From a virus, in IMG/VR virus record IMGVR_UViG_3300000116_000126, positions 1-29,482 of that record: 29,482 nt of DNA; one strand, written 5' to 3'. Below the pieces are notes generated by a model. That model was not told the origin of the DNA and did not search any database. It worked only from the letters and a program-made list of their open reading frames with translations. The position numbers and the translations under genes are program-made. Shown piece by piece: positions 1 to 27,085 of this stretch. Each line of letters opens with the position of its first letter. The first letter of the stretch is position 1.

Positions 1-70
1 TTTTTTATAAGCTACTTCGGCTTTTCTTAAATCATCTATAAGGCTAGTTCCTATTTTTGTATCTTTATCT
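1..70. repeat. Terminal direct repeat, copy 1 (identical to 29413..29482)
   Basis: Read base by base: ttttttataagctacttcggcttttcttaaatcatctataaggctagttcctatttttgtatctttatct occurs at both window ends. Confidence 0.95.
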
Positions 71-171
71 AAAGCAGAATTAAATGCTTTATCGAAATCA
101 TCTACAATACCTAACTTTAATTTTTCAGCTTTGCTAAACTTTCTAAGTTCGTTGTAAAATTTATTCTCCAT
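1..171 (-). CDS. N-terminal 57 codons of a 115-aa small helical protein (paralogue A), split by the window ends
   Basis: ATG is the reverse complement of 169..171. Translation: MENKFYNELRKFSKAEKLKLGIVDDFDKAFNSALDKDTKIGTSLIDDLRKAEVAYKK. The frame continues without a stop through the 70-nt overlap into 29412..29236, because the 29412-nt unit length is divisible by 3. Confidence 0.75.
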   Translation of the reverse strand, partial: MENKFYNELRKFSKAEKLKLGIVDDFDKAFNSALDKDTKIGTSLIDDLRKAEVAYKK

Positions 172-201
172 AATATAAAATATAAATAAGTTTGATTTGT
201 T

Positions 202-1473
202 TTATTTTCGGTCTATTTGGTCTAGCTTTTTTATTGCCCACTCTACACCACTCGTACCACCCCAAGCATCGTACATTATACCACCACAACCCTCGCTATA
301 TGGTACGTCTTTATGTTGTTCGTGTCTTTTAAATGATGCCATACGAGCAATAGTATCTCTGCTTATAGGATTTTTATCTGCTAGTTGTCTTGCTCTTGTC
401 CAACCTACCTTAGTGCCACAATCGCTACCATTTTCTTCTTTGTACTTAATAGCTTTTTTAGCGTTGTTACTAGCACTTTCAGGATAGTCAGTATAGCTTT
501 CTAGTTCTACTTCTGCTTCAATAGGTACGCAGTTAGGTACTTTACGACCATCTTTTATCTTATGTCCTATTGGCTCATACCCCTCTTGACAAGGGTTGGG
601 AGTAATCAAGTCAGTATCAAAGCAGTTGCAATCTTCTTCTAAGATAGTTGCTAGTGTGTCTAGTATCTCGTGGTCAGAGCAAGGCATATATACTTTCTTA
701 TCCTCTAATTCGTGTTCGTGATAACCCTCACAACCTAACTCTTTAGCAACCTCAACTGCATCTTCTGCATTGTCAAATACAGGGAAGCCATCTATCTCGC
801 CTACTTGTGCGTACTTTTTCTTCTTCTTCTTTTTCTTATCAGTCTTTGCTAGTGTTTCCATCTTATCGACAAAATACCCCTCTATACTCAAACCTTTTAA
901 CTCGCCACTCTTAATGCGTTCCCATACCTCATCGTTGTTTACTCGCATAGATACAAACCAAGTACCTTTAGGCAATTCATAGCCATATAAGTTGCTCTTA
1001 TCGTTTTTGCTATCTTCTACTATCCAACTCTCTACTGTATGCACTCCTGTAACCTTTTCTTCGTGTTGTAAGGTCGCATTGTTAGTGTTTTGGTGTTTCA
1101 TATACGCTTCGGCAGCCTTACGGACTGTATCAGCAGTAAAATACACATAGTAGTTTCTATCTTTGTTAGCATCGTATCTGTATATCTGCTTGTAGGGTAT
1201 CAAAGCTGGACTTACTAGCAGTCGTTCTTCTTCGTTTACCTTTGCAAGTGTTAAGTTGCTCTCTATGTCGTTAAAATATACAAAGTCAGTTTCTATTGCT
1301 GGACTTGTTACCAAAGATATAGCATCTATTGCTAATTCTTCGTTGTTCTCATCTACAATCAGTTCTACGATGTCATAAGTGTCGTGTGCTTTCTCGCACT
1401 CTTGTAGGGTGTCGTACTTACATTCACCATCACCCCATTTATACTTTCCGTTATCACATTCTTTACAAGGCAT
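202..1473 (-). CDS. Composite prohead protease: XkdF-type (Peptidase_S78_2-like) domain with Cys-rich N-terminus, poly-Lys linker and three C-terminal modules
   Basis: 423-aa ORF. Residues ~85-200 (LVSPALIPY...HTVESWIVED...KGTWFVSMRVNNDEVWERIKSGELKGLSIEGYF) match my recollection of the XkdF family. It lies upstream of the scaffold and capsid genes. Confidence 0.75.
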   Translation of the reverse strand: MPCKECDNGKYKWGDGECKYDTLQECEKAHDTYDIVELIVDENNEELAIDAISLVTSPAIETDFVYFNDIESNLTLAKVNEEERLLVSPALIPYKQIYRYDANKDRNYYVYFTADTVRKAAEAYMKHQNTNNATLQHEEKVTGVHTVESWIVEDSKNDKSNLYGYELPKGTWFVSMRVNNDEVWERIKSGELKGLSIEGYFVDKMETLAKTDKKKKKKKKYAQVGEIDGFPVFDNAEDAVEVAKELGCEGYHEHELEDKKVYMPCSDHEILDTLATILEEDCNCFDTDLITPNPCQEGYEPIGHKIKDGRKVPNCVPIEAEVELESYTDYPESASNNAKKAIKYKEENGSDCGTKVGWTRARQLADKNPISRDTIARMASFKRHEQHKDVPYSEGCGGIMYDAWGGTSGVEWAIKKLDQIDRK

Positions 1474-1483
1474 AATCTTATTT

Positions 1484-3190
1484 TTAAATTGTTGCTTTTC
1501 TTCTTATTTTACTTAATTTATCTTGTTGCTTAGTCATGTCATCAGCTACTACAAAGGCTTTTACAACTCCCATAGTCGTACCTCCTACACCCTCGCCACT
1601 TGCGAATGACCTACCACCACCAGCTTCGTTAATTGCGCTTAGAAGTGGTTTAAACATTCTTGTACTACGTGCATTTATTACACTCTCACCCTTAGATAGT
1701 CTAGCACTAACACTATCACTCGTTCCTGTACCATATCCACCTACAAAACCACCTTGTGCAAATTGTGGCTCTTCTACTGCAAGTATCTTATCAATGTTAG
1801 CCATACCAGCTAAAAATGTAGAACCAGCTAATATAGGACCAAATACAGGTCCAGCACCGACAGGTGGTGGTGCTAGTGCAGCAGTCATAGCCATATAAGT
1901 ATTTATAGTTGTTTCAGCGACTGCTAATGCTTTTGCTGCTTTACTTTCTTCACCCATAATACTTTTAATGTTAGCAATACTTTGTAAAACTATATCAACA
2001 TCAGTCTGCGTTTGCGTTCTACGTATTTCATTAAGTTTATCTGCTTTACGTTGTTCAAGTGCAGTTATATCTGTACCACTCTTTTCAGCAAGTCTAAACA
2101 ATTCTTCATATTGTTGCTCTACTTCTAATAACTCTCTTTCTCTTTCGCTTACACCCTCTAATGCTAATTCTTTCTTTACATCTTGTAACTCTCGTTGTAA
2201 AGATACTTGATTAGTAAGTTGTTCTGATTGAAAGCCTGTTATTTGTGCTTCAATAGCTAGTAACTCATTTTGTGCTTCTGTAAGTGCTATTAAGTTCTCT
2301 TGATTTTTTAATTTATCATATTCAATTTGTGCTGCTTGTACTTGTATCTGTTGTAAAGCTAACATCTCTTTGGCTTGTTTTTCTAATACTACACCAAGTT
2401 CTTCATTAGCCTTTATTCTATCTTCAAAAGTTTGGTTTTCATCATCTCTTACTTGCCTTAACTTTTCTGCTTGTCTATCATAGCTCTCTATAAGACCTTG
2501 TATCTTAACTTGTGATAGTTCGGCTTGTTTTTGTAGTGCTACATTAGCCTTTGCACTATTTATAGTTTCTTTAGTATAATCTACTACTGCTTCTGTTACC
2601 TCGTTAAATGTTTTTGCAATTTTAGTAGTGCTATCATCAACACCTGTAACTACATCTACCATTTCTTTACCAGCCTCTTTGATAGTTACACTAGCTTCTT
2701 TAAATTTACCAGCAACTAATAAGCTAATAGTATGACCAAGCAAATTAGCAACTTCTATGGCACTTTCAAATCGTTCTATTAGATTGTTTTTTAATGCAGT
2801 ACCTAAAAGTCTAATACTACTTACAGGATTTTCAAAAACATTTTTAAAAAATTCTGCAACTTGTCCGAAATTATTAAACACAAAGTTTACAAAATCATTG
2901 ATAGCTATACTTGTAGCCTCAAATACAGTATTAAAGAAGTCAGCAGTCTTTTGGTTCTGCATAAATATTTCTTGCAATAAGTTAAGTGCTTTTATAGCTA
3001 AACCAATACCAGCAGCTTTTAATGCTAATCCTACACCTTTTATTGCTGCTACAAATGTAGAAGTAGCTTTAGCAGTAACAGTAGCTGATGCTCCTATACC
3101 TACAACTGCTGTTTTTACTTCTTCTAAATTATCTTTTGCATCGCCTACATCAGCGACTAATTTCATTACTACTTCTTCTTGTATTGCCAT
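1484..3190 (-). CDS. Tape-measure-like or internal virion protein (long coiled coil)
   Basis: 568-aa ORF with a hydrophobic Gly/Ala-rich N-terminus, ~250 aa of heptad-like E/K/Q/L sequence, and a C-terminal GGFVGGYGTGTSDSVSARLSKGESVINARS motif typical of tape-measure C-termini. The start could instead be the second ATG at 3166. Confidence 0.5.
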   Translation of the reverse strand: MAIQEEVVMKLVADVGDAKDNLEEVKTAVVGIGASATVTAKATSTFVAAIKGVGLALKAAGIGLAIKALNLLQEIFMQNQKTADFFNTVFEATSIAINDFVNFVFNNFGQVAEFFKNVFENPVSSIRLLGTALKNNLIERFESAIEVANLLGHTISLLVAGKFKEASVTIKEAGKEMVDVVTGVDDSTTKIAKTFNEVTEAVVDYTKETINSAKANVALQKQAELSQVKIQGLIESYDRQAEKLRQVRDDENQTFEDRIKANEELGVVLEKQAKEMLALQQIQVQAAQIEYDKLKNQENLIALTEAQNELLAIEAQITGFQSEQLTNQVSLQRELQDVKKELALEGVSERERELLEVEQQYEELFRLAEKSGTDITALEQRKADKLNEIRRTQTQTDVDIVLQSIANIKSIMGEESKAAKALAVAETTINTYMAMTAALAPPPVGAGPVFGPILAGSTFLAGMANIDKILAVEEPQFAQGGFVGGYGTGTSDSVSARLSKGESVINARSTRMFKPLLSAINEAGGGRSFASGEGVGGTTMGVVKAFVVADDMTKQQDKLSKIRRKATI

Positions 3191-4084: not shown

Positions 4085-6150
4085 ATTCTAAGTAGTTCTA
4101 CTTTTGCTAAATTATTCCTATCTGTATTATACTCTATCTTATTAACTCGATAGTGCTGGTCTTTAACTTTTACTAAATCACCAAAGCTAAAGTTATAAAT
4201 ATCTGTTGGCTTTAGATTAAATTCTGCTTTTAGTATCAAGCCATCAGTAATGTTAAACTTTTCATCTATATAATCTGCCCAAAAGAAGTTATACAAAGTT
4301 CTACTAGGTATATTGCCTAGTGTTGGTGTATATATAGGATTGGTAAAGCCAAATAATAAAGAGTATGAGTTTGTTTCTACTTGTGGTAATGGTGGGTTGT
4401 TGTCAGCACTACCATAGTATTGTGTACCATTATTTATAAATTGATAATCAGCACCAAATATGTCGCCTGTATCATCTTGCACATCTAAATCTATATCAAA
4501 GCCATTGTCATTTTTAAATATTAATCTAGGTGCATTATCAAACGCTTCTAGTTCTTCACCATTATCGGTAGCTATGTGTTGTAAGTTTATGTTACTATTA
4601 TCTAGTTGTTTAGTAAAAGGTGCTGCAAATACGCTTAACTCTATTGTATTTACCTCATCGCTATCTACATCAAACTCTAATACTTGACTACCATACTCTG
4701 TATTGTGTGCGTTCTTATATCTTTCGTGGTAATAGTCATCACTATCTTCTGCATGTTTAAACTCTATGCGCTTAGGTATCTCGATAGGCTCTATTACAAA
4801 TTCGTTAGCGTTTATTTTCTTTGTCCAATCTATTACATTGTTAGTAGTGAAGTTATAGTAAGGCTCTATTTTAAGTAAATTGTTTTGCTTACTCTCTAAA
4901 GTCAGATTAAATGCAGTTACTACATCTTTTAGTATATCAGCTAACTTAATATCACCTCTATTAGCTTTTATTAGAACATCAGTTGGTGTGTTTAATAAGT
5001 TTAATGATAAACTAGCATCTGAATTAGCTATCATTAAATCTGCCATAGGTGCTACCCATTGTAAAGTAACTGTATTACCACTAGCTACGAATACACTACC
5101 TGTAAAAGTCTTTGTTTCTACTGTTGGGTTACCAAGTGCTACTGCTTCATTTATATAGTGTTGCCCTAAATTTTCATCATTAGCATATAATCTCAATATA
5201 CCATATTGAAAATCATTTTCGTTATATATTTTTACTGTGTATTCTATGTTTAAGTAACAATCGTAAGGTGCAGTAAATACACTTGTATCGTGGTTAAAGT
5301 TACTATCAGTATCACCACTCTCATTTACAAAGTCTATTACTGTTGCACTCTCTATACTATCACCTATATTAGTACCATTGTTTACACCTACACTATCTGT
5401 ACCACTACCAACTGTTGCAATTATTGTATCATCTTCAAAATCGCTACTATTATTATTTAATCCTATATCAAAAAATATATCTTTAAAATAGTCAGTTTCA
5501 AAAAAACCACTATCATAACTAAATCCAGCATAATCAAATATCTTATCTATAACATATTTAAGGCTTATGTTTAGTATATAGTTTTCTTGATAGCTACGCA
5601 TATATAAATTTTCAGCATCTACATATATTTGCCCATCATTTATTAATGGATAGAAAACTTTATCAGTAGTACCACCAGCACTTAATGTAGTCAAGCCAAA
5701 CCAACTTTGTATAATATTAGTTGGTGTTAGTTCGTGGTCTATATCTGTAAAGTCTAAATCGTTTATAGTAGCATCTGCAAGTGTTTCTATAATATTAGCA
5801 ACATCATTAAACAATACCACATTGTATGTAACCTCTGTATCTTTATCTACGACATTTAAGAGCCTTAAAAAACCCTCAAGTACTAATACATCTTCGCTAT
5901 ACAGAAATGCTTTTACGTTCTTATATACGTTAAAATTAGTCTTATATCTATCTACGTTGTAGTAATGCTCAAAGAACTTATTGTTACGCTTAGTAGCTGG
6001 TAGGTTAAAGTCTTTAGAGTATGATGCGTTCTTGCTTTCTATATCTCTAACATCATCTACTTGTAATGTTAAGTTGATATTCTCATTACCAAACGTATCT
6101 AACTCTTGCAACTCATTAGTTACTTGATTTTGTACTACTAATCTTATCAT
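4081..6150 (-). CDS. Large virion or tail structural protein
   Basis: 689-aa ORF, translationally coupled (ATGA) on both sides within the tail-gene block. N/T/S/D-rich beta-type composition. No catalytic motif recognised. Confidence 0.4.
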   Translation of the reverse strand: MIRLVVQNQVTNELQELDTFGNENINLTLQVDDVRDIESKNASYSKDFNLPATKRNNKFFEHYYNVDRYKTNFNVYKNVKAFLYSEDVLVLEGFLRLLNVVDKDTEVTYNVVLFNDVANIIETLADATINDLDFTDIDHELTPTNIIQSWFGLTTLSAGGTTDKVFYPLINDGQIYVDAENLYMRSYQENYILNISLKYVIDKIFDYAGFSYDSGFFETDYFKDIFFDIGLNNNSSDFEDDTIIATVGSGTDSVGVNNGTNIGDSIESATVIDFVNESGDTDSNFNHDTSVFTAPYDCYLNIEYTVKIYNENDFQYGILRLYANDENLGQHYINEAVALGNPTVETKTFTGSVFVASGNTVTLQWVAPMADLMIANSDASLSLNLLNTPTDVLIKANRGDIKLADILKDVVTAFNLTLESKQNNLLKIEPYYNFTTNNVIDWTKKINANEFVIEPIEIPKRIEFKHAEDSDDYYHERYKNAHNTEYGSQVLEFDVDSDEVNTIELSVFAAPFTKQLDNSNINLQHIATDNGEELEAFDNAPRLIFKNDNGFDIDLDVQDDTGDIFGADYQFINNGTQYYGSADNNPPLPQVETNSYSLLFGFTNPIYTPTLGNIPSRTLYNFFWADYIDEKFNITDGLILKAEFNLKPTDIYNFSFGDLVKVKDQHYRVNKIEYNTDRNNLAKVELLRI

Positions 6151-7565
6151 AGTCTTTGTACTCTTGTGTTATGACCTTTTTCTATTGTTATGATATACTG
6201 CTTTAACATATCGTTAGCAGTAGTTTGTTTTATGTATTCTGTTTCATTAATGACAACAGGCTCGAATGTAGTGCCTGTCTGCATATAAACATCAGGACTT
6301 AAAAATAATTCCTCTAATATAGCTGCTTCATCTTCTGTAATAAAATCTGTATTAGCTTCTATGGTTTCTATTGCGTTTACATTAAATGCTCTTGTACCAC
6401 CATTGTATGTACCTTGCGTGTAATAATCAAAGTTAAAAGCATCGCCTGATGATGTAGTAGCTAGATATGGTGTAGTACCATAGTTTTGTTTTATAGCAGT
6501 CTTGTTTATTTGTGTCTTTCTTACTGACTTCTTAGTAAAGTTGTAATAATCCCAAGCACCTAGACTATTTAAAAATGCTAACCTAATAGTTTCAAAGCCT
6601 TTGCAGTCTGCATCTTGTATAGTAAAATAGTAAACTTTACTAACAGATGTGCTTACATTTAGTGCAGTTACAGTATAGTAAGCTACGTTAGTAAGGCTAA
6701 CCCCTAATTGTGTTAATTGAGCAGTACCACAACCAAAGTATAACAAACCCTCGTTAGTATTATCACCACCAACTTGTGTAGCAGTAATAGCTGAACCGAA
6801 AGGAGCACCACCATTAAGCGTAGTGTTATCTACATATTCAGTGTCTAACATAGTATCTGAACTATTATAGGTTCTAATTCTAATTCTAGTTACTTTACTA
6901 TCTAAGTAATGCTTACCATTTAAAAAAGCCATCGTGTGATATTGTCCAGCTTGTATTTTCTGACCTGATAAACCTGTACTAGCAAAGTTTTGTGGAAACT
7001 TAGTTAAGAACTTCTTAGTACCACCTGTTAGTAGATAACCACTAAAATCTTCTGTACTATAACCAGCATTGTGCTGCAATACTGAATTAAAAAAGTTAAA
7101 ATTAACATCTGTACTTATTGAAAACTCTTGTATGGTAGTACCACTACTATTGGTGTATTCATAACCCCCTAAACAAGTACAATTATTAAGATTGTTTCTA
7201 TTCCTTGCGTACTTGTCTATCTGATGTATAGCGTGGTTGTTTTCATACATTGTGTCAGTATTAAATGTACTATTTGCACCACCAGCTAAATCATAACCAC
7301 TCTTATCAGTTTCTGTATAATCTTGCAATATAGATGATATTCTAAATAATGCTTTGTCGTTAGTATCAACAGGTGCTTTAAGTGTTGCTACTGTTTGAGC
7401 ATTAACTGCTACTACACAAATGTATTTTAAGTTAGATACTACCCCAGCAACTTGTTGTGCAATTAATAAAGGTGGTATATCTTCTGCGTATATTACTATA
7501 TCTGAATAAGCTGGTGCAAGGAATTGTGCGTTGCCTTGCATTGTTGTTCTTAAATTTACTGCCAT
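6147..7565 (-). CDS. Virion or tail structural protein
   Basis: 472-aa ORF, coupled to neighbours by a TAATG overlap at 7565 and an ATGA overlap at 6147..6150. Composition is typical of tail proteins. Confidence 0.4.
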   Translation of the reverse strand: MAVNLRTTMQGNAQFLAPAYSDIVIYAEDIPPLLIAQQVAGVVSNLKYICVVAVNAQTVATLKAPVDTNDKALFRISSILQDYTETDKSGYDLAGGANSTFNTDTMYENNHAIHQIDKYARNRNNLNNCTCLGGYEYTNSSGTTIQEFSISTDVNFNFFNSVLQHNAGYSTEDFSGYLLTGGTKKFLTKFPQNFASTGLSGQKIQAGQYHTMAFLNGKHYLDSKVTRIRIRTYNSSDTMLDTEYVDNTTLNGGAPFGSAITATQVGGDNTNEGLLYFGCGTAQLTQLGVSLTNVAYYTVTALNVSTSVSKVYYFTIQDADCKGFETIRLAFLNSLGAWDYYNFTKKSVRKTQINKTAIKQNYGTTPYLATTSSGDAFNFDYYTQGTYNGGTRAFNVNAIETIEANTDFITEDEAAILEELFLSPDVYMQTGTTFEPVVINETEYIKQTTANDMLKQYIITIEKGHNTRVQRL

Positions 7566-8083
7566 TATTCTATCTCTTTACTTACGAATTTTAAAAATTG
7601 TTGTGTGTCTTGTGCGTATGCCTTGATAAAGTCTTTAGGTAAATCTCTATATGCTACATTAAAAGCATCAGTAAAGAAGTTGCTAGGCTTAACACCATAT
7701 AGCTTTATATTCCTAGCTATGCTAAACACTAAACTCTTGCGTGGTATAAACCTACCCTTTTTATCTCTAACACCTTGTATGCCTTTGCGTACTGCCCACT
7801 TGTCTATAACTCCTGATGGTGGTTGTTTTGTAGTGTACTTGTAAGGCGAGTTAGGTGCTTTAGCACTTGACTTACTACCCTTAACCCCTTTATCTACAAA
7901 CTTAGCGTAACCCTCTGCTACAAAAGACATATCTACTGCACCACTAGGATAAACCTTAATAAAGTACCCTAGACTACTACCTAAATCGCCACTAGCATTT
8001 CTGCCTTTAGCGTTTAATATACCTCTAGCAGTCTGTACTACCTTTTTGCCAAAGGTGTCTAATACTTTATCTACATTACTCAT
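7565..8083 (-). CDS. Head-tail joining or tail-completion protein (HK97 gp10-like)
   Basis: 172-aa ORF. ASGDLGSSLGY...AEGYAKFVDKGV resembles the TG-L...YA..VE.G signature of the HK97 gp10 family (recollection only). Confidence 0.4.
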   Translation of the reverse strand: MSNVDKVLDTFGKKVVQTARGILNAKGRNASGDLGSSLGYFIKVYPSGAVDMSFVAEGYAKFVDKGVKGSKSSAKAPNSPYKYTTKQPPSGVIDKWAVRKGIQGVRDKKGRFIPRKSLVFSIARNIKLYGVKPSNFFTDAFNVAYRDLPKDFIKAYAQDTQQFLKFVSKEIE

Positions 8084-8544
8084 TATGCAGTTGCTATTAC
8101 TACCTCAATATCTAAAGTAACAGTAGCAGTTGCACTATAAGCGTATAACGCTTCTATCTCTGCTAATGCAGTTTGTGCTGCTTTACTTGTTGCGCCTTTT
8201 ACATCTTTTGCGCCATTTATCATATAAATACTACCACCAGCTCTGACTTCTTCTGCTGCCGATGTAGCGTTACTAGCTTTAGTAATTATTACAGAGTTAG
8301 TATCATCTAAATTAGTAATTCTGATATACTTAATATCATCATAGTCAAATTCAGGTGAAGTAGGTGAACTATCAAAGTTTGCTAATGTTGTAGCAGTTTG
8401 TGCAGTTAGAGTATATATCCTTTTTGATATATTACCTACACTTGCAATAGTATGCGTTGTAGTTGTGTCATAGGTTGCTCCACCTAATGTTAGTTCTTCT
8501 TTTACTTGAACTGTTAAAGTACTTGGTGTAATTGTTGTTGCCAT
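8083..8544 (-). CDS. Abundant-looking structural protein (T/S/A-rich, 153 aa)
   Basis: First gene downstream of the TA-rich control region 8545..8686. Beta-rich T/A/S composition. TAATG coupling to the next gene. Confidence 0.4.
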   Translation of the reverse strand: MATTITPSTLTVQVKEELTLGGATYDTTTTHTIASVGNISKRIYTLTAQTATTLANFDSSPTSPEFDYDDIKYIRITNLDDTNSVIITKASNATSAAEEVRAGGSIYMINGAKDVKGATSKAAQTALAEIEALYAYSATATVTLDIEVVIATA

Positions 8545-8686
8545 TTTTTAATTAATTTTCTTTATTATATATATTATTATTATATTACTATTATATATCT
8601 ATATATATATATTATATAGTGTATATATTCTTGTTTGTGTCCTTTTGTTGTTACGCATTTGATGTAACTCATTCATTTTGAGATAG
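8545..8686 (-). promoter_or_regulatory. TA-rich intergenic control region R1, with a conserved 34-nt box at 8626..8659
   Basis: 142-nt gap that is almost pure A/T from about 8545 to 8625. The box tattcttgtttgtgtccttttgttgttacgcatt matches 18911..18944 at 28 of 34 positions with no gaps. Confidence 0.55.
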
Positions 8687-9181
8687 TTAGGATATTGCGA
8701 CATTTCCACTACAATTACTTGCATTAAATCCTACCTCTATACTGACATTAGCAGTCCACCCACTAACCTCATTGTCGAACCTTTCTGTAAAAGGCTCACA
8801 ACTAACACTAGGACTTATTGCAACCTCTGTTTGAAAGTCAGGTATGTTTTCGTACTCTCCTGTTCTATTCTTTAGCAGACTAATAACATCGCCAATAGTT
8901 TCTAGCGTATCACTCAACACATCTCTCTCGTTGCTCTCATCTTTGCTTACTAAGTCCATTACAATAATCTGAAACGAATATGTTAGCGTGTGCTGTGCAA
9001 AGTTAGCAGTAGCAGTAGAAACGTGAAGTAGTGGGTATGTGGTTTCTGTTAGGTCAATCTCAAATATATCGCCTATGGTCGTTGTGTTTATTTGAAAGTG
9101 TGTGTTTCCTATTTCTTCAAATATGCCATACAACATTTGTAGCGTTATGTTTTTAATCTCTGTTCCTGTTGTTAGTATCAT
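8687..9181 (-). CDS. Hypothetical virion-associated protein (164 aa)
   Basis: ORF whose ATG forms an ATGA overlap with the stop of the -1 frame of the upstream gene. Confidence 0.45.
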   Translation of the reverse strand: MILTTGTEIKNITLQMLYGIFEEIGNTHFQINTTTIGDIFEIDLTETTYPLLHVSTATANFAQHTLTYSFQIIVMDLVSKDESNERDVLSDTLETIGDVISLLKNRTGEYENIPDFQTEVAISPSVSCEPFTERFDNEVSGWTANVSIEVGFNASNCSGNVAIS

Positions 9182-9435
9182 CTTCTATTCTGTATGTGTG
9201 TTAAATCTTTTTGGTACGCTAAGAAGTTAAAGCATTCGTTTACCGATAACTCTAACACCTCATCAAATTTTAATATATCGCCATTTGCTAAATTATAAAT
9301 TAAACTGTACCAGCCATATTTTTCGTTAAATTGTTCTTCTTCTGTCTTAAAAGTTTGCGCCTCTCTCGCCTCGACAGGCTCTTTGAATAAACTTGCGTAG
9401 TGGCTATGTAGTCCGTTGCGATAGTCAAAAAAAAA
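9178..9435 (-). other. -1 frame continuation (82 sense codons plus TGA) entered at the T9 run
   Basis: Hand-translated as DYRNGLHSHYASLFKEPVEAREAQTFKTEEEQFNEKYGWYSLIYNLANGDILKFDEVLELSVNECFNFLAYQKDLTHIQNRR. It has no Met, no stop, and ends in an ATGA overlap with the next gene at 9178..9181. Confidence 0.6.
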
Positions 9436-9950
9436 CTAGCAGCACCATTAACAGTATCTACGCTAAGATTGTCTTTAAATATCTTTGCTCGTTTCTTAGC
9501 AGTTCTAAAGTCATAATCTTCTACCTTATACTTATCACCCTTTTGTTCTGTGATAGGTCTGTATAGTATAGCCATTACACTATCCATAGCACTCCAGCCA
9601 TCGCCTAACTTATTATCTAAATCTACAAACTCTTTTAACTTTAGTTCGTGTAGGTTAGGGTGGAAACCATAATCTATACCATCTATTGTGATAACTAAGT
9701 TAAGGTCTTTGTTAGCTTCGTTCTCCATTAGCTTACCTAGTTGCTCCATTACTGCATCTATATCTGACTTCTTACAACCTTGTAATAGTTTCTTAGGTGC
9801 ATTAGTAAAAGCACTAATAGTAGCTATTGTCTTTTCTAAATCATCTTCAACACCATCTACGCTTAACATAAAGTCCATATACTTACCAAGAGATACTTGC
9901 GACCAGCTTGTAGGTATTGCGTAATTGATGTTGTTAATAACTAAATCCAT
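9300..9950 (-). CDS. Hypothetical protein, zero-frame product (216 aa), possibly tail-assembly-chaperone-like
   Basis: ORF starting after the terL-proximal hairpin. It contains a T9 run on the coding strand at 9427..9435. After that run the zero frame gives an odd basic tail, SLSRRERRKLLRQKKNNLTKNMAGTV. Confidence 0.55.
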   Translation of the reverse strand: MDLVINNINYAIPTSWSQVSLGKYMDFMLSVDGVEDDLEKTIATISAFTNAPKKLLQGCKKSDIDAVMEQLGKLMENEANKDLNLVITIDGIDYGFHPNLHELKLKEFVDLDNKLGDGWSAMDSVMAILYRPITEQKGDKYKVEDYDFRTAKKRAKIFKDNLSVDTVNGAASFFLTIATDYIATTQVYSKSLSRRERRKLLRQKKNNLTKNMAGTV

Positions 9951-10024
9951 ACTATAAAATATAAAAGTTAAAATTTGAGTATAATTGCAACGTTTTGTTA
10001 ATTAAGATTGTTTGTTTGTAAAAG

Positions 10025-10052
10025 AGAGTAGTTGTTTAGCTACTCTTTTTTT
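10025..10052. terminator. Hairpin abutting the terL stop codon
   Basis: The stem pairs agagtag (10025..10031) with ctactct (10040..10046). It is followed by T7 on the plus strand but only CTTTT on the minus (coding) strand. Confidence 0.4.
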
Positions 10053-11358
10053 ATTGTATATAGTAAACACCTTGTGGCTTTAGTTCATAGTACATTCGCA
10101 TAGCCAAAGCATCACTAAAGTCAGGAGAACGACCAATAGCATTCTTTACCTCATCTTTACTTATCAGTTGTAGCTTAGTATCTTTGTCAAAGTTCTTGCG
10201 CCTTACTTGCTCTAATTCTTGCACTATAAAGTTCTTGTACGTTATGTTAGTGCAGTTAATATATAGCTTAGACTTATTTAGAGCATCGCTAAGGGCATAA
10301 TAGCATTGCGTCTTTAGATTGATATAGTTTTCTTTTTTAAGTGCCTTAGAATTGTTTACAAAGCCTTTGCATCTCAATATGTCCTTAACACCACCACCCA
10401 CACCATCATCATCGACTATAATATTACCTAGTGCTACATTGTAGTTTCTCTGTATGGTGCGTATCTCATCTGCTGCTTGTGTTACGCTATTAGTGTCTAG
10501 CACCTTAAAGTATTCGGCTCTTAGTCCGTTCCAATAGATTATTACTGTCTTATCTTTACCAAACCTTGCGATGTCAGCAGTAATGTATCCTATGCCACTT
10601 GGTGTATCATCTAATTCAAATGCGCCTAGTATAGCATTATAGTCTATTAGCTTATCTTCGCTATCATCATACTCCCAATTACCATATAGCAGTCGTTGCT
10701 TACTGATGTGGTCTAGTTTCTCTAGCTGGTCTTTGTAATGCTTAGAAACGTGCTTATTATCGGTTACTAGCGATTGTATGAACTTGCGATATGGTAGTAA
10801 TCTATTCTCTTTATGTGGTTTGTAGAACGTGCTATATACCCATTCCTTACTTGGGTTGCAAGTCATAAGCACCTTTGGTATTAGATTGTATTGGTCTAGC
10901 TTATATCTTATCCTACTGCTTACTATCTGCTTTGCTTTCTCTGTTATTTGGTTGCACTCATCTATAAATGCAGCAGTAAGTTCTAATGAACCTAGACTAT
11001 CGAAGTTCCTATCTGATGGGTATTGGAATAAGTCTTTTAGTATAACCTCTGAACCATTGTAAAACGTAATGATGTTGCTTGATGCATTGTATTTGTAGTG
11101 TGTGTTGGCTTCTATCCCCCATTGGCTACATACATCAAAGAAAGTGTTTAGTGTGGTTTTCTTTAGGCTGTCTAGCTTACTACGACCTATCATACATCTG
11201 ATGCCATCGTGTGAGGTGCATAGCCATATTATCCAAGCACACCCCAAGAAACTCTTACCACCACCAGCAGCACCACCATACAGTACTTCTGTTGTGGTCT
11301 TGTCTGTTAGGTAGTCAATCGCTAACCATTGTTTATCCGTTAGTTTCGCTTTCATCAT
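10051..11358 (-). CDS. terL: Terminase large subunit
   Basis: 435-aa ORF. Walker A-like motif YGGAAGGGKSF near the N-terminus and acidic nuclease-half motifs (IIVDDDGVGGG). It directly follows a small HTH protein. Confidence 0.85.
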   Translation of the reverse strand: MMKAKLTDKQWLAIDYLTDKTTTEVLYGGAAGGGKSFLGCAWIIWLCTSHDGIRCMIGRSKLDSLKKTTLNTFFDVCSQWGIEANTHYKYNASSNIITFYNGSEVILKDLFQYPSDRNFDSLGSLELTAAFIDECNQITEKAKQIVSSRIRYKLDQYNLIPKVLMTCNPSKEWVYSTFYKPHKENRLLPYRKFIQSLVTDNKHVSKHYKDQLEKLDHISKQRLLYGNWEYDDSEDKLIDYNAILGAFELDDTPSGIGYITADIARFGKDKTVIIYWNGLRAEYFKVLDTNSVTQAADEIRTIQRNYNVALGNIIVDDDGVGGGVKDILRCKGFVNNSKALKKENYINLKTQCYYALSDALNKSKLYINCTNITYKNFIVQELEQVRRKNFDKDTKLQLISKDEVKNAIGRSPDFSDALAMRMYYELKPQGVYYIQ

Positions 11359-11704
11359 CTCGCATTAGAGTTATTGTAATAGGCTTAAACTCTCCTGATA
11401 CATCTAACTCTTGTTTCTCTACATAACCTCGCTTCTTACCTTTGGTCTTTAGGTAGAAGATTGTGGCTTGTGTTTTACCTTTGCCTATCTGCTTATGTAG
11501 TTGGCTCTCTGCAAAGTCTATCGCTACATCATCAATACTCTTAACTGCTAACTTATATGCTTCATCTTCTTTGAGCCATCTATAATGTGTTTCTCTTGTA
11601 ATATTAACTAACTTACAAGCTGATGTAACTACTCCCAATGTTTTCTCTAATGCTTCTAGCATCGCTATCTTACCTTTCTCTGTTCTATCTTGCATAGGTG
11701 TCAT
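11333..11704 (-). CDS. terS: Terminase small subunit (HTH type)
   Basis: 123 aa. The motif LEALEKTLGVVTSACKLVNITRETHYRWLKEDEAYKLAV is typical of HTH small terminases. It overlaps the terL start by 26 nt. Confidence 0.65.
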   Translation of the reverse strand: MTPMQDRTEKGKIAMLEALEKTLGVVTSACKLVNITRETHYRWLKEDEAYKLAVKSIDDVAIDFAESQLHKQIGKGKTQATIFYLKTKGKKRGYVEKQELDVSGEFKPITITLMRDDESETNG

Positions 11705-11713
11705 ATTTTGTAA

Positions 11714-12154
11714 TTATTTACCACACAAGGCGCATACTATTTTGTCCTTTGGTTGTGGTTCTTCTTCTTCTTGATTGTTATATATATCATCTTCATTGAG
11801 CCATACATCTAAACCCCAATCTTCTAATTCTACACTATCCCATTCATTAGCTAGTATATCCCAATCCCAATCGCCAAAGCCTAAGTTGTCTTTAATTATA
11901 AACTCTTGCTTTTGTTTCTCTGTTAGTTTGTCTGCTCTTATTATATTTACTTCTGTATGTCCTAACTCTACTATTGCTTTGTATCGCATATTGCCACCAA
12001 GTATATACCCTTTGTCATCTACTACGATAGGTCTTAGCTTTAGCATTTCAGGAAAGTCTTGTATAGATTGCTTTAGCTTTTCAAACTTAGCTTTATTTAC
12101 AAGTCTAGGATTGATAGGGTTATTGCGTATGCTATTAATAGGTACTTGTTCCAT
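11714..12154 (-). CDS. ParB-like nuclease domain protein
   Basis: 146 aa. INSIRNNPINPR...LRPIVVDDKGYILGGNMRYKAIVELG matches the ParB N-terminal (ParBc) signature. Confidence 0.7.
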   Translation of the reverse strand: MEQVPINSIRNNPINPRLVNKAKFEKLKQSIQDFPEMLKLRPIVVDDKGYILGGNMRYKAIVELGHTEVNIIRADKLTEKQKQEFIIKDNLGFGDWDWDILANEWDSVELEDWGLDVWLNEDDIYNNQEEEEPQPKDKIVCALCGK

Positions 12155-12413
12155 TGTACTTAAATATCTTATTGTTTATTCTATCTATGTCGCTTTGTTC
12201 TTCGTTCAGATGCTTTTGCCTTTTAAGTTCAAAGTTAAGATGGTCTATTGCCTTTTGTATGTCCTTAGATATATCGTTGTCTTGTTTCTTACCAGCTCTC
12301 ATAAGGTAGGCTAGTGCTACTCCTAAGTTATAACTGTTGCCACAAAAGTCCTCTATGACTTCGTGCGCTTCCATTTTGTAGTAAGTTCCTTTGTAGTAAT
12401 TTGGTGTGTTCAT
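12135..12413 (-). CDS. DUF3310-like protein
   Basis: PNYYK...EAHEVIEDF...NLGVALAYLMRAGKK...DISKDIQKAIDHLNFEL fits DUF3310. I chose the ATG at 12411..12413 because it forms an ATGA overlap with the upstream stop, instead of the track start at 12470. Confidence 0.6.
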   Translation of the reverse strand: MNTPNYYKGTYYKMEAHEVIEDFCGNSYNLGVALAYLMRAGKKQDNDISKDIQKAIDHLNFELKRQKHLNEEQSDIDRINNKIFKYNGTSTY

Positions 12414-21961: not shown

Positions 21962-23806
21962 TTAATATCCTTTTTTATTTACAAATCCATTTTTAGGCAT
22001 TCTCTTTGGTGCAACAGGTACTTCTTGCTCGTTAGTTTCAGGCTTAAAACCCATACTCCTAGCTTTAGTAGTTGTAACTATCTTATCTGCACTACTAGCC
22101 TTTTCACCAGCTTGTAGGTAAATCCTACGAAACCATTTATGGTGGCAGTTGCCCCCACCTTTAAATTTCCATATAGAATAGTTATCTGCGCCATTCAATC
22201 CCCAACCTTTGTTTACACCTCTACTACCCATTCTAATTATATCCTCTTTACGATATACCTTACCAGTAGACATCATCTTAGTACAGAACTCTCTCTGTTG
22301 TCCACTAGAACGAGTTAAGCCTTTATCTTCTGTATATACATAACGTACTCTAAACTTACTCTTGTGTTCTTGTTGGCTTTGCCCATCTTGCTCTGACTTA
22401 GCATTGGGTATTGCTCTACCTGTCGTTGCTAACTCTAATTTTTCTAAGTTGTACTCAAAGTCAAAATCTTCGTGTTCGCCCTCTGCATCATCTTCGTCTA
22501 TGAGTTGCCAATTCTCTAAGTCCTCATCTTCGCCAAACTCCATTATACATTTATCTAACTCTGTGTATTCAGCTAGGTTTTGTTCTTCGGCTACTGCTTG
22601 TTCGTTTTTCTCTAATGGCTCATATCCAAGTTCCTCTCTAATCTCATCTTGCGTAAGAACTTCTTTCAGCGTTTCAGCATCAAACATAGAATTTAAAGGC
22701 TGAACGTCTTTTATGCTCAATGGTATGGTAACACCATTTATTGCTAAAAGTTTCTTAAACGTCTTTAAAAGCTGATTTTGGAATGGTTTTACTACACTAT
22801 TCATATATAACTCATACGCTTGTAGTAATTCGTTACGACCACCTAACTGCCCCTCTGTCTTAACACCTAATAGCATAGGACTTGTTACCCTATGACCAAT
22901 CATAATGTTTTGTATCGTTAGTTCATTGAGTACTGTGTATTGCTTATCTGCATCAGATACTGCGATAGGTACTATTTCAGGCTTACTATTTGCATCATCA
23001 CTAAATGTCAATACAAACTTACCAGCGTTGTTAGCACCTGTGAATTTATTAGCTATCTGTCTTTCTATCTGTACTCGTTCCTCTCTTGTTGGTATCCCTG
23101 ATGCGAAATTAATAAAGTACGAGCCACTAAAACCATTAGTGATATTGTTTAAATGAAAGTCAGATGTAAGGTTATCTATCTGTATCCAATTCGTACTAGC
23201 TACATAGTCAGGAGTGTGGTACAATTCCATTGCTGGAGAGTATAAACCACTATATAATAATTGGCTACCCTCACTTCTATCCATCATATTAAATGGTGCT
23301 ATGTGCTTGGGTGCGTATTCTTTCTTTCTGTATTGTGTCCAATCAGAGCATAAGTAATAGCAAGGTACTTTACCATCTTGGTCAGGCACTCCTATTCTTA
23401 CTTGCTCAACAGGTATGTGGTGTAGTTCGGCTATCTTAGTCTTATCCTTAGACCATATTACATTAATAGCGTATGCACCTTGTAGTTTTAAATCAAAGGC
23501 TAACTTAACAAATAGTTCGTGTGCGCTTTCTTGTCCGTTTACTGCTGCTAGAAACTTCTTTAACTCTACATATTGTGCAAGGTCTTTACTATCCTCACAT
23601 ATAAAGTCCTCACCAGCTATCATAGCACTCGTAGCATTAACGATAGCAGCATTGGTAGCACTATTGTTATATAAATCTATTATATATTGTGGGTAGTTGT
23701 TTTTGTACTCACCATCGCCAAAGCCAATCCAATCAGCACCATTAACCTCAACACTTTTAGGTTGTACTTCGTTTGTTAGATTTATATTTATTAGTCTTTC
23801 TTTCAT
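21962..23806 (-). CDS. Portal protein with acidic linker and C-terminal Cys/His module
   Basis: 614 aa. The N-terminal ~400 aa look portal-like (GADWIGFGDGEYKNNYPQYIIDLYNNSATNAAIVNATSAMIAGEDF ... GHRVTSPMLLGV). Residues ~420-455 are an acidic linker. Residues ~460-614 contain REFCTKM...GGGNCHHKW. Confidence 0.65.
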   Translation of the reverse strand: MKERLININLTNEVQPKSVEVNGADWIGFGDGEYKNNYPQYIIDLYNNSATNAAIVNATSAMIAGEDFICEDSKDLAQYVELKKFLAAVNGQESAHELFVKLAFDLKLQGAYAINVIWSKDKTKIAELHHIPVEQVRIGVPDQDGKVPCYYLCSDWTQYRKKEYAPKHIAPFNMMDRSEGSQLLYSGLYSPAMELYHTPDYVASTNWIQIDNLTSDFHLNNITNGFSGSYFINFASGIPTREERVQIERQIANKFTGANNAGKFVLTFSDDANSKPEIVPIAVSDADKQYTVLNELTIQNIMIGHRVTSPMLLGVKTEGQLGGRNELLQAYELYMNSVVKPFQNQLLKTFKKLLAINGVTIPLSIKDVQPLNSMFDAETLKEVLTQDEIREELGYEPLEKNEQAVAEEQNLAEYTELDKCIMEFGEDEDLENWQLIDEDDAEGEHEDFDFEYNLEKLELATTGRAIPNAKSEQDGQSQQEHKSKFRVRYVYTEDKGLTRSSGQQREFCTKMMSTGKVYRKEDIIRMGSRGVNKGWGLNGADNYSIWKFKGGGNCHHKWFRRIYLQAGEKASSADKIVTTTKARSMGFKPETNEQEVPVAPKRMPKNGFVNKKGY

Positions 23807-26592: not shown

Positions 26593-26996
26593 TATATACT
26601 TATGTATTGTGTGTTACTATTTGTTGTGTTCTTATTGCTTGTAGGTGTGTATTGTGTATATGATACCTCTGTTACATCAGCATCTTTCACTAATGCCTTA
26701 CCCCTCTCTATAATCTGATTGTCATTCAAGGTGCTATCATTAGTTAAATCGTTAGTGGCAACTTGATACACTACATAAGTGTAAAAACCCTCTGCACCTA
26801 AACTAATATCTACACCCTCTGTAAATTCTACTATGCTATATCTTGGCTCCACTTGTTCGGTAGGATTAAGATAGTAGCTTACTTTAGTCATATCGTTGGT
26901 AAACTTAATAAAAATATATGGACTTAATGGCAACTTTTTCTTACTTGTAAGATTAAAGTATAACTCATTTTCTACACCTTGATTTATTACTACCAT
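26592..26996 (-). CDS. Hypothetical virion-module protein (134 aa)
   Basis: First ORF after the terminator at 27038..27062. TAATG junction with paralogue B. Confidence 0.45.
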   Translation of the reverse strand: MVVINQGVENELYFNLTSKKKLPLSPYIFIKFTNDMTKVSYYLNPTEQVEPRYSIVEFTEGVDISLGAEGFYTYVVYQVATNDLTNDSTLNDNQIIERGKALVKDADVTEVSYTQYTPTSNKNTTNSNTQYISI

Positions 26997-27037
26997 AATA
27001 TAAAATATAAAAAACTATGTTTTATTTACAATTAGTC

Positions 27038-27062
27038 AAAAAAAAAGTGGGATAAACCCACC
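27038..27062 (-). terminator. Rho-independent terminator after the capsid-proximal genes
   Basis: On the minus strand: GGTGGG-TTTAT-CCCACT followed by T9 (plus-strand A9 at 27038..27046). It lies 24 nt past the stop of 27086..27631. Confidence 0.65.
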
Positions 27063-27085
27063 TTTTCTTTAAATTATATTGGTAA

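What the first reader, a model, noticed from the sequence alone, without database searches (positions are those of the whole stretch)
9178..9950. T9 run joins a 216-aa ORF to an open, Met-less -1 frame that ends in an ATGA overlap with the next gene
On the coding strand the sequence reads GCT AGT TTT TTT TTG ACT (plus-strand A9 at 9427..9435). The zero frame then runs 41 more codons of atypical basic sequence to a stop at 9300, leaving a 118-nt apparently non-coding gap. The -1 frame stays open for 82 codons of ordinary-looking protein (…FNEKYGWYSLIYNLANGDILKFDEVLELSVNECFNFLAYQKD…). It contains no start codon and stops at 9178..9180, overlapping the ATG of the next gene exactly.

There are two explanations. 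One is a programmed -1 ribosomal frameshift on a T-TTT-TTT-type slippery site, as in the G/GT tail assembly chaperones. The other is a homopolymer length error or phase variation, in which case the true gene is one ~257-aa ORF. The gene is not next to the tape-measure-like gene, which would be unusual for a G/GT pair.
Basis: partly seen in the sequence, partly recalled or inferred. Interest (0 to 1): 0.7.

Follow-up and report, generated by a model that had tools for sequence, protein, structure and literature searches.

The report
Conserved T9 recoding site, phage gene
A run of nine T's inside a marine flavobacterial phage gene is a conserved, deliberate frame-switch signal, not a sequencing error, that lets one gene make a short and a long protein, and its pattern of conservation points to RNA polymerase slippage rather than the classical ribosomal frameshift.

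Summary
The minus-strand gene 9950..9300 (216 aa) contains a T9 run at 9435..9427. A Met-less -1 frame runs from that run to a TGA at 9180..9178, which overlaps the next gene's ATG.

It is not a sequencing error. Of 90 distinct related loci, 87 need the same -1 shift. The run is exactly T9 in 66 of 69 distinct sequence contexts and T10 in two further lineages that still need the shift. Proteins in these loci have diverged to about 27% identity. They include isolates (Nonlabens phages P12024S/L) and a Flavobacterium chromosome.

The -1 peptide is conserved from the first codon after the run. It aligns with homologues that are single in-frame ORFs (L072, Polaribacter phage Leef_1 gp02).

The run keeps its length in all three reading-frame registers. 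It is never shortened to the seven bases a ribosome needs. No conserved downstream RNA structure exists. I therefore favour programmed transcriptional slippage (U9 to U10), about 55%, over purely ribosomal U_UUU_UUU frameshifting, about 35%.

Function is unproven. The gene opens a conserved neck/tail operon after TerL and behaves like a G/GT tail assembly chaperone. It is not next to the tape-measure-like gene and matches chaperone families only below threshold.

The parts
9300..9950 (-). Zero-frame ORF encoding the short isoform (216 aa). It comprises the shared N-terminal domain (residues 1-174) and a 42-residue zero-frame tail (LTIATDYIATTQVYSKSLSRRERRKLLRQKKNNLTKNMAGTV).
   Evidence: Homologues of 215-216 aa dominate the protein database. 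AlphaFold pLDDT is about 90 over the N-domain of a 76%-identical fused homologue.
9427..9435 (-). T9 run (plus-strand A9), the recoding site. It contains U_UUU_UUU in phase (9435..9429), and its length matches that of known RNA-polymerase slippage sites.
   Evidence: The run is invariant in 40 unique close relatives while flanking synonymous sites vary. It is T9 in 66 of 69 distinct contexts across three registers.
9178..9435 (-). The -1 frame extension: FFF plus 82 codons plus TGA. The long isoform (257 aa) is complement(join(9178..9429, 9429..9950)), or equivalently the ordinary translation of an mRNA with U10.
   Evidence: The -1 peptide is conserved from the run onward (FF[FL]x[FY]R...KWGWY...ECLTWL) in alignments A1, A2 and A4. 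It aligns with the in-frame homologues L072 and Leef_1 gp02.
9300..9426 (-). Dual-coding overlap, where both the zero frame (short-form tail) and the -1 frame (start of the long-form C-terminal part) are read.
   Evidence: Codon-position periodicity of diversity is damped here: 0.32/0.22/0.34 against 0.24/0.15/0.44 in the -1-only part. Both frames show conserved hydrophobic periodicity in distant lineages.
9178..9181 (-). ATGA overlap between the stop codon of the long form and the start codon of the downstream 164-aa gene (8687..9181).
   Evidence: In 81 of 84 loci with a detectable next gene, the -1 frame stop lies between -26 and +2 nt from the next ATG.
9948..9966 (-). 19-nt motif TTTTATATTTTATAGTATG ending in the gene's ATG. 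It is a putative late promoter or leader marking the start of the operon.
   Evidence: There are three copies in the window, each abutting an ATG, against 0.31 expected.
10020..10051 (.). A 14-bp hairpin with T/A tracts on both sides, lying between TerL and the recoded gene. It looks like a terminator and separates the packaging genes from the operon that the recoded gene opens.
   Evidence: the sequence is shown.

Best explanation
This is a conserved, programmed recoding site. One gene yields two proteins that share a 174-residue N-terminal domain.

**The two products**
- Standard expression gives the 216-aa short form, which ends in a short amphipathic/basic tail.
- A shift to the -1 frame at the T9 run gives the 257-aa long form. 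It carries an ~80-residue helical C-terminal domain with a KWGWY...ECLTWL-type motif.

**Most likely mechanism (inferred)**
- The host RNA polymerase slips on the nine-base homopolymer. A fixed fraction of mRNAs then carry U10.
- Ordinary translation of those mRNAs gives the long form, whose stop overlaps the next gene's ATG.
- Tandem tRNA-Phe slippage by the ribosome on U_UUU_UUU may contribute. It would give the identical protein.

**Function (inferred)**
- The protein is probably a virion-morphogenesis factor that works like the G/GT tail assembly chaperone pair. The recoding rate would hold the two forms at a fixed ratio.
- It is encoded as the first gene of the neck/tail operon, directly after the terminase genes.

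**Shown:** the anatomy, the conservation of the run and of both frames, the register independence, and the absence of a conserved RNA structure.
**Inferred:** the slipping enzyme, the ratio of the two forms, and the function.
For: **1. Not an error**
- T9 plus a -1 C-domain occurs in 87 of 90 distinct loci.
- It also occurs in Nonlabens phages P12024S/L at 27% protein identity, in 5 MAG contigs, and in a Flavobacterium chungangensis isolate contig.

**2. Selection at the nucleotide level**
- All nine positions are invariant in 40 unique close relatives, while neighbouring synonymous sites vary (diversity 0.26-0.6).
- TTC never replaces TTT in the run in any of 69 contexts, although 16.5% of Phe codons in this genome are TTC.
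- 6 of 10 Phe-Phe pairs elsewhere in the genome are TTC-TTT.

**3. Length conserved independently of register**
- T9 occurs as AGT TTT TTT TTG (29 contexts), GTT TTT TTT TGG/TAC (34) and AGG TTT TTT TTT GCT (3).
- T10 occurs in L100 and L118, which still need the -1 shift.
- No locus that needs the shift has T7 or T8.
- A ribosome needs only 7 bases. P2 E/E', a proven ribosomal case, has just TTTTTTG.

**4. Matching precedent for polymerase slippage**
- Bacterial RNA polymerase slips efficiently in vivo at runs of 9 A/T.
- Thermus dnaX (a 9-base run) and Shigella mxiE (Tn, n>8) use this mechanism (PMC5009743; PMC3711429).

**5. No stimulatory RNA structure**
- The window fold has z = +1.34.
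- RNAalifold on 31 diverse loci predicts 0 pairs.

**6. The long form is a real protein**
- The -1 peptide is conserved from the run onward.
- It aligns with single-ORF relatives (L072; Leef_1 gp02, hhalign probability 92%).
- AlphaFold models one helix spanning the junction (H164-188).
- The -1 stop abuts the next gene in 81 of 84 loci.

**7. Tail context**
- The order TerS-TerL-[this gene]-164-153-172-472 is conserved.
- The P12024S homologue of the 172-aa protein weakly hits HK97-gp10_like.
- The C-terminal part of the 472-aa protein matches baseplate-complex chains (phi812, phiCD508, E217, Algoriphagus eCIS) with probability 0.99-1.00.
Against: - No transcript or protein data exist, so the slipping enzyme is inferred from sequence statistics only.
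- In every register, T9 also contains an in-phase U_UUU_UUU heptamer. Ribosomal -1 frameshifting is therefore always possible.
- The 'extra' T's are partly constrained by hydrophobic or aromatic residues in both frames. Some of the length conservation could therefore be protein-level.
- The register classes are largely clade-specific, so the number of independent register changes is small (about 4).
- Function: the gene is not between a tail tube gene and the tape-measure-like gene (1484..3190).
- There is no significant match to any solved structure.
- Only sub-threshold hits to chaperone families were found: Pfam Phage_TAC_7 at E 0.047 and 0.16, and a BFVD 'tail assembly chaperone' entry at E 0.017. 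hhalign against P2 gpE was not significant.
- A few relatives are single ORFs with no slip site. That is unusual if both forms are essential.
Confidence: 0.55

Rival explanations
1. Classical programmed -1 ribosomal frameshifting. Two tRNA-Phe slip back on U_UUU_UUU (or U_UUU_UUG) as in lambda G/GT and P2 E/E', on an mRNA that faithfully copies T9.
For: - An in-phase X_XXY_YYZ heptamer exists in every register.
- The architecture matches tail assembly chaperone pairs: a shared N-terminus, a -1 extension of about 80 aa, and a zero-frame stop soon after the site.
- P2 E/E' slips on a T-rich site, GGT TTT TTG.
- Many phage G/GT sites work without strong stimulators (my knowledge of Xu et al. 2004, cited in PMC5009743).
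Against: - It does not explain why two bases beyond the heptamer are invariant in three registers, nor why no T7 or T8 site exists among the loci that need the shift.
- There is no conserved downstream structure.
- Runs of 9 T are reported to make bacterial RNA polymerase slip efficiently. Transcript heterogeneity is therefore expected at this site whatever the ribosome does.
Confidence: 0.35
2. Sequencing or assembly error at a homopolymer. The real gene would be a single ~257-aa ORF with T10.
For: - Three in-frame versions exist: L003 (T10, same protein as the window), P0002 (FFF junction, consistent with T10) and P0001 (FF junction, consistent with T7).
- Homopolymers are error-prone on some sequencing platforms.
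Against: - T9 is found in 66 of 69 distinct contexts from many independent projects and assemblers, and in isolate genomes.
- Lineages with T10 (L100, L118) still need the -1 shift.
- The zero-frame tail has a conserved length and conserved hydrophobic pattern.
Confidence: 0.02
3. DNA-level phase variation. Replication slippage would switch individual genomes between short-only (T9) and long-only (T10/T7) states.
For: - Long A/T runs are hypermutable.
- Rare T10 and T7 variants are seen in assemblies.
Against: - The consensus length is fixed at T9 in nearly all lineages, not polymorphic among close relatives as in contingency loci.
- A lytic phage needs both products in each infected cell, if the G/GT analogy holds (inference).
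- The same run length is kept over deep divergence.
Confidence: 0.03
4. Two separate genes. The -1 ORF would be translated by independent initiation, as annotated for P12024S gp39.
For: - P12024S/L annotate a separate 55-aa gene starting at an internal ATG.
- Gene callers often report 80-130-aa ORFs for this region.
Against: - The window's -1 frame has no ATG and no start that gives 40 aa or more.
- The conserved -1 peptide begins at the run itself, upstream of any such start.
- Single-ORF homologues are collinear through the junction.
Confidence: 0.03

Closest known systems
Lambda G/GT and P2 E/E+E' tail assembly chaperones (programmed -1 ribosomal frameshift; Xu, Hendrix & Duda 2004; Levin et al. 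1993, as reviewed in PMC5009743)
   Same: - Two products share an N-terminal domain.
- A -1 frame extension of about 80 aa is added near the 3' end.
- The site is T-rich, as in P2 (GGT TTT TTG).
- The gene lies in a tail/neck gene block of a tailed phage.
- The arrangement is conserved far beyond the limits of sequence similarity.
   Different: - The site is a strictly conserved nine-base homopolymer in any register, not a minimal heptamer.
- The gene is the first gene after TerL, about 6 kb upstream of the tape-measure-like gene, and is not between tube and tape-measure genes.
- The N-domain is larger (174 aa) and appears to be an internal duplication of a beta-hairpin plus helix unit (my reading of the secondary structure).
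- There is no significant sequence or fold match to known chaperones.
- Some relatives are single ORFs.
Programmed transcriptional slippage (realignment) genes: Thermus thermophilus dnaX (9-base run), Shigella flexneri mxiE (T9), and IS-element transposases with A/T runs
   Same: - A homopolymeric A/T run of 9 sits at the frame junction.
- No RNA structure is needed.
- Adding one nucleotide to the mRNA gives access to the -1 frame.
- Run length, rather than reading phase, is what is conserved.
   Different: - The known cases are cellular replication, secretion-regulator and transposase genes. I found no described case in a phage morphogenesis gene in the literature I could search.
- Slippage here is inferred, not measured.
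PHROG families phrog_32199 and phrog_38404 (unknown function; P12024S gp38 and gp39)
   Same: Direct homologues. The N-domain matches phrog_32199 (E 7e-12 for the window, 4.5e-105 for P12024S). The -1 part matches phrog_38404.
   Different: The database treats them as two unrelated families of unknown function. The evidence here shows they are two parts of one recoded gene.

Membership tests
G/GT-type tail assembly chaperone pair | [quoted passage not shown] | tested here: met
   87 of 90 distinct loci keep the -1 arrangement. The junction is conserved.
G/GT-type tail assembly chaperone pair | In-phase slippery heptamer X_XXY_YYZ at the junction | tested here: met
   U_UUU_UUU is in phase in all three registers of the T9 run.
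G/GT-type tail assembly chaperone pair | Gene located between the major tail (tube) gene and the tape measure gene | tested here: not met
   The gene follows TerL and is followed by the 164-, 153-, 172-, 472-, 689- and 256-aa genes. The tape-measure-like gene is at 1484..3190. The same order holds in relatives, and in Leef_1 the tape measure gene is about 10 kb away.
G/GT-type tail assembly chaperone pair | Sequence or fold similarity to known chaperone families (Pfam Phage_TAC_*, solved structures) | tested here: inconclusive
   - Pfam Phage_TAC_7 hits are below threshold, at E 0.047 and 0.16, and collinear over N-terminal residues ~17-80 in 2 of 16 members.
- phrog_166 'tail protein' hits at E 8e-4.
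- A BFVD 'Tail assembly chaperone' entry hits at E 0.017.
- PDB sequence and fold searches are empty.
- hhalign against P2 gpE gives probability 0.2%.
G/GT-type tail assembly chaperone pair | Binds the tape measure and tube proteins, is required for tail assembly, and is absent from virions | not testable with these tools
   Needs genetics, proteomics or pull-downs.
Programmed transcriptional slippage site | Homopolymeric A or T run long enough for RNA polymerase realignment (about 9 or more) | tested here: met
   T9 at 9427..9435. Published thresholds are runs of 9 A/T, Tn with n>8.
Programmed transcriptional slippage site | Run length conserved irrespective of reading-frame register, and not reduced to a heptamer | tested here: met
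   T9 occurs in registers 0, 1 and 2, and T10 in two lineages. No T7 or T8 occurs among loci that need the shift.
Programmed transcriptional slippage site | mRNA population heterogeneous in run length while the DNA is homogeneous | not testable with these tools
   No transcript data are accessible here.
Phase-variable contingency locus | Tract length polymorphic among close relatives, switching the gene on and off | tested here: not met
   All nine positions are invariant in 40 unique close relatives. Only 3 in-frame variants were seen among more than 200 sequences.

The most novel reading that the evidence does not exclude
A very large family of marine flavobacterial phage morphogenesis genes (2,422 cluster representatives at 50% identity) sets the ratio of two protein isoforms by programmed RNA-polymerase slippage on a strictly conserved T9 run. 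This would be the first widespread use of transcriptional slippage in a phage structural/assembly module. It would functionally replace the ribosomal G/GT frameshift in a chaperone gene that has moved to the head of the tail operon.
Probability: 0.4. Interest if true: 0.75.

Novelty: new variant of a known kind. Interest (0 to 1): 0.62.

Why it matters
**Annotation.** The family is large (2,422 cluster representatives at 50% identity). It is annotated as a truncated hypothetical protein plus an orphan small ORF, or as two unrelated PHROGs. Recognising the recoding gives the correct 257-aa product.

**Mechanism.** The conserved tail-chaperone frameshift is the textbook case of ribosomal recoding in phages. 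This family's signal is a homopolymer of fixed length in all three registers. That gives a clean natural test of transcriptional against translational slippage. A culturable system exists for it: P12024S/L on Persicivirga (Nonlabens) sp. IMCC12024. If RNA polymerase is responsible, it extends programmed transcriptional slippage to phage morphogenesis and to Bacteroidota.

**Genome organisation.** A G/GT-like gene at the head of the tail operon, away from the tape measure gene, would relax a synteny rule widely used to annotate siphovirus tails.

Tried and rejected
- **Sequencing error and phase variation.** Rejected by comparative data.
- **Independent initiation of the -1 ORF.** Rejected: there is no start codon, and conservation begins at the run itself.
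- **Downstream stimulatory RNA structure.** Single-sequence folding was no better than shuffles (z = +1.34). RNAalifold on 31 loci predicted no pairs.
- **Function by homology.**
  - Pfam, NCBIfam and PDB sequence searches gave nothing significant.
  - Foldseek against PDB gave nothing for the recoded protein.
  - BFVD gave only uncharacterised phage proteins.
  - hhalign of the family profile against P2 gpE was not significant.
- **Diverse P2 gpE profile.** An attempt to build one from IMG/VR returned only 99-100% identical prophage copies. It was useless for a profile comparison.
- **DNA-level search of isolated phages.** This found only TerL similarity. tblastn with three family members found only P12024S/L and Leef_1.
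- **The second coding-strand T9 (27038..27046).** I checked it as a possible second recoding site. It is the U-tract of an intergenic terminator.
- **'Fused' cluster representatives in the 50% library.** I considered them as natural fusions. Most have the FFL/FFF junction expected of rare T10 variants, probably picked as the longest cluster member. Only L072/P0360 and Leef_1 gp02 are clearly natural in-frame forms.
Full report
**1. The observation**

The finding is accurate.
- On the minus strand, the gene starting at 9950 reads ...GCT GCT AGT TTT TTT TTG ACT... The T9 run is plus-strand A9 at 9427..9435.
- The zero frame ends at TAA 9302..9300, giving a 216-aa ORF.
- The -1 frame has a TAG immediately before the run. 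It is then open for FFF plus 82 codons to TGA 9180..9178, which overlaps the ATG (9181..9179) of the next gene.
- The +1 frame stops at once (T-G-A).
- About 0.18 coding-strand T>=9 runs are expected in the window. From the composition, an 85-codon open frame has a probability of about 7e-4 (my arithmetic).
- The only other coding-strand T9 (27038..27046) is the U-tract of an intergenic hairpin terminator.

**2. It is a conserved feature, not an error**

- A search with the hypothetical fused protein found 38 IMG/VR loci. A profile search found 520 or more relatives, of which 80 were kept.
- I built HMMs of the N-part and the -1 part and searched all three forward frames of every locus. In 87 of 90 distinct loci the C-part lies in the -1 frame relative to the N-part.
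- The run at the junction is exactly T9 in 66 of 69 distinct sequence contexts.
- Two lineages (L100, L118) have T10 and still need the -1 shift.
- One contig (L003), encoding the same protein as the window, has T10 and is in frame.
- One lineage (L072) is a natural in-frame fusion with no T run.
- The isolated Nonlabens phages P12024S/L are only 27% identical in protein. They have CTT TTT TTT TAT at the same place, and their -1 frame encodes a recognisably homologous peptide. It is currently annotated in part as a separate 55-aa gene.
- Five MAG contigs and a 386-kb contig of the isolate Flavobacterium chungangensis also have T9 and the -1 frame.
- In the protein database, about 118 of the best 120 clusters are the split 215-216-aa form. 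Two are fused: P0002, with an FFF junction consistent with T10, and P0001, with an FF junction consistent with T7.
- An exhaustive profile search finds 2,422 cluster representatives at 50% identity with E <= 1e-3.

**3. Both frames are coding after the run**

- The -1 peptide is conserved from its first codons (FF[FL]x[FY]R xx[LI]xxx[YF]xx[LI]F), through a variable acidic linker, to a KWGWY...ECLTWL[SA]Y motif.
- It aligns collinearly with single-ORF relatives: L072 (...YVEFRNNIYKEFEELF...) and Polaribacter phage Leef_1 gp02 (hhalign probability 92%, aligned through the junction).
- AlphaFold2 on a 76%-identical fused homologue gives mean pLDDT 82, about 90 over the N-domain. One helix (164-188) spans the junction, and the linker (187-201) has low confidence.
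- The zero-frame tail has a conserved length class (24-25 or 38-42 codons). By my reading of the sequences, it also has a conserved hydrophobic periodicity in distant lineages.
- Among 40 unique close relatives, the codon-position pattern of diversity is damped in the overlap. Values at -1 frame codon positions 1/2/3 are 0.32/0.22/0.34, against 0.24/0.15/0.44 downstream. This is weak evidence for dual constraint, because the region also contains the variable linker.
- The -1 stop overlaps or abuts the next gene's ATG (-26 to +2 nt) in 81 of 84 loci. The zero-frame stop leaves 100 nt or more.
- The +1 frame always terminates within 2-17 codons.

**4. Mechanism**

The product is the same whether RNA polymerase adds one U or two tRNA-Phe slip back by one base, so the protein sequence cannot decide between them. 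Four sequence features bear on the question.

(a) Run length is conserved but phase is not.
- T9 occurs as AGT TTT TTT TTG (29 contexts), GTT TTT TTT TGG/TAC/TCN (34 contexts) and AGG TTT TTT TTT GCT (3 contexts).
- Register changes also occur inside clades. For example, L077 and L109 are register 0 while their C-domains resemble those of register-2 loci (my reading).

(b) The run is never shortened.
- No locus that needs the shift has T7 or T8, although seven bases suffice for a ribosome.
- The proven ribosomal site of P2 E/E' is only GGT TTT TTG.

(c) Nucleotide-level selection is evident.
- The nine positions are invariant while flanking synonymous sites vary.
- TTC never appears in the run, although 16.5% of Phe codons in this genome are TTC.
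- Elsewhere in the genome, 6 of 10 Phe-Phe pairs are TTC-TTT, which breaks up T-runs.

(d) No conserved RNA structure follows the site.

The literature adds two points.
- Bacterial RNA polymerase slips efficiently in vivo at runs of 9 A or T.
- Thermus dnaX and Shigella mxiE exploit such runs (PMC5009743; PMC3711429).

Taken together, I favour programmed transcriptional slippage (about 55%) over purely ribosomal frameshifting (about 35%). The two may act together.

Three caveats apply.
- T9 always contains an in-phase U_UUU_UUU.
- The extra T's are partly constrained by hydrophobic or aromatic residues in two frames.
- Independent register changes are few.

**5. Context and function**

- The window has a 70-nt terminal direct repeat, so it is a complete circularly assembled genome of about 29.4 kb.
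- Gene order on the minus strand:

| Feature | Coordinates / size | Evidence |
|---|---|---|
| ParB-like | 11714..12154 | |
| TerS | 11333..11704 | |
| TerL | 10051..11358 | |
| Hairpin terminator | 10020..10051 | |
| 19-nt motif ending in the ATG | 9948..9966 | |
| Recoded gene | 9178..9950 | |
| Downstream genes | 164, 153, 172, 472, 689, 256 aa | |
| Tape-measure-like protein | 568 aa | |
| XkdF-type protease | 423 aa | |

- The portal gene is far away, at 21962..23806.
- The order TerS-TerL-[recoded gene]-164-153-172-472 is conserved across the family.
- The Flavobacterium chromosome copy has the same downstream block without TerL.
- The P12024S homologue of the 172-aa protein weakly matches HK97-gp10_like (E 0.03).
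- AlphaFold2 of the 472-aa protein (pLDDT 88) shows beta-sandwich repeats. Its C-terminal ~170 residues match baseplate-complex chains of phi812, phiCD508, E217 and an Algoriphagus contractile injection system with probability 0.99-1.00.
- The recoded gene therefore opens a neck/tail operon.
- Its own homology is uninformative:
  - No Pfam, NCBIfam or PDB hit.
  - BFVD matches are all uncharacterised phage proteins.
  - Only sub-threshold, collinear hits of the N-terminal ~80 residues to Phage_TAC_7 (E 0.047 and 0.16) and to phrog_166 'tail protein'.
- No other G/GT-like pair lies next to the tape-measure-like gene.
- I rate a tail-assembly-chaperone-like role at about 50%. It works like G/GT (two isoforms, -1 extension, tail module). 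It fails the positional criterion and has no demonstrated homology, so I do not file it as a member.

**6. Comparison and novelty**

- The closest systems are the G/GT and E/E' chaperone frameshift, and the transcriptional-slippage genes dnaX (Thermus) and mxiE.
- I found no description of this family, or of transcriptional slippage in a phage morphogenesis gene, in the searchable literature. That library is incomplete.
- I class the finding as a new variant of a known kind.

**7. Verdict**

| Claim | Probability |
|---|---|
| Observation | Confirmed |
| Sequencing error or phase variation | Rejected |
| Programmed recoding with two products | about 0.93 |
| Principal mechanism is transcriptional slippage | about 0.55 |
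| Principal mechanism is ribosomal frameshifting | about 0.35 |
| Tail-chaperone-like function | about 0.5 |

Interest: 0.62.

Noticed in passing
window 169-187, 9948-9966, 26994-27012 (minus strand): A 19-nt motif, TTTTATATTTTATA(G/T)TATG, ends exactly in an ATG start codon three times, against 0.31 expected. The copies at 9948-9966 and 26994-27012 lie just downstream of a terminator-like hairpin. It is probably a phage late promoter or leader that defines operon starts.
   Followed up: partly
window 27038-27046 with hairpin at about 27047-27065 (minus strand): The only other coding-strand T9 is the U-tract of an intrinsic terminator (GGTGGGTTTATCCCAC + T9). It lies between the 181-aa gene and the 134-aa gene. 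It is not a second recoding site.
   Followed up: yes
window 1-70 and 29413-29482: A 70-nt exact terminal direct repeat. The window is a circularly assembled, apparently complete phage genome of about 29.4 kb. Related contigs cluster at 28-30 kb.
   Followed up: partly
window 21962-23806 versus 10051-11358: The portal gene (phrog_33693, E 1e-77) is about 10 kb from TerL and lies downstream of the tail, protease and capsid-like genes in transcription order. This module order is unusual for a tailed phage.
   Followed up: no
window 6147-7565 (472-aa protein): The AlphaFold model (pLDDT 88) shows Ig-like/MG-like beta-sandwich repeats. Its C-terminal ~170 residues match baseplate-complex chains of phi812, phiCD508, E217 and an Algoriphagus contractile injection system. 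It is probably a tube, tube-initiator or distal-tail protein.
   Followed up: partly
L125 (Flavobacterium chungangensis NZ_JBHSFY010000005.1) 5995-12317: A bacterial chromosome carries the recoded gene (T9 at 6471) followed by the same tail block, with two paralogues of the 472-like gene (488 and 327 aa) and a 712-aa protein. No TerL lies immediately upstream. It could be a prophage with a different layout or a tail-like element.
   Followed up: no
window-wide Phe-Phe codon pairs: Outside the recoding site, 6 of 10 Phe-Phe dipeptides are encoded TTC-TTT, although TTC makes up only 16.5% of Phe codons. This suggests avoidance of long T-runs in ordinary genes.
   Followed up: partly
L072 2905-2983: The naturally in-frame homologue has an in-phase A_AAA_AAA (TTA AAA AAA TTA) about 25 codons upstream of the junction position. 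Its -1 frame stops after about 15 codons. This could be a different way of making a truncated form, or just AT-rich sequence.
   Followed up: no
window 202-1473 and 28595-29233: The N- and C-terminal halves of phrog_24921 hit two different genes: the XkdF-type protease gene and the 212-aa gene upstream of the putative capsid gene. These lie on either side of the contig junction. This suggests a split or duplicated protease/scaffold module.
   Followed up: no
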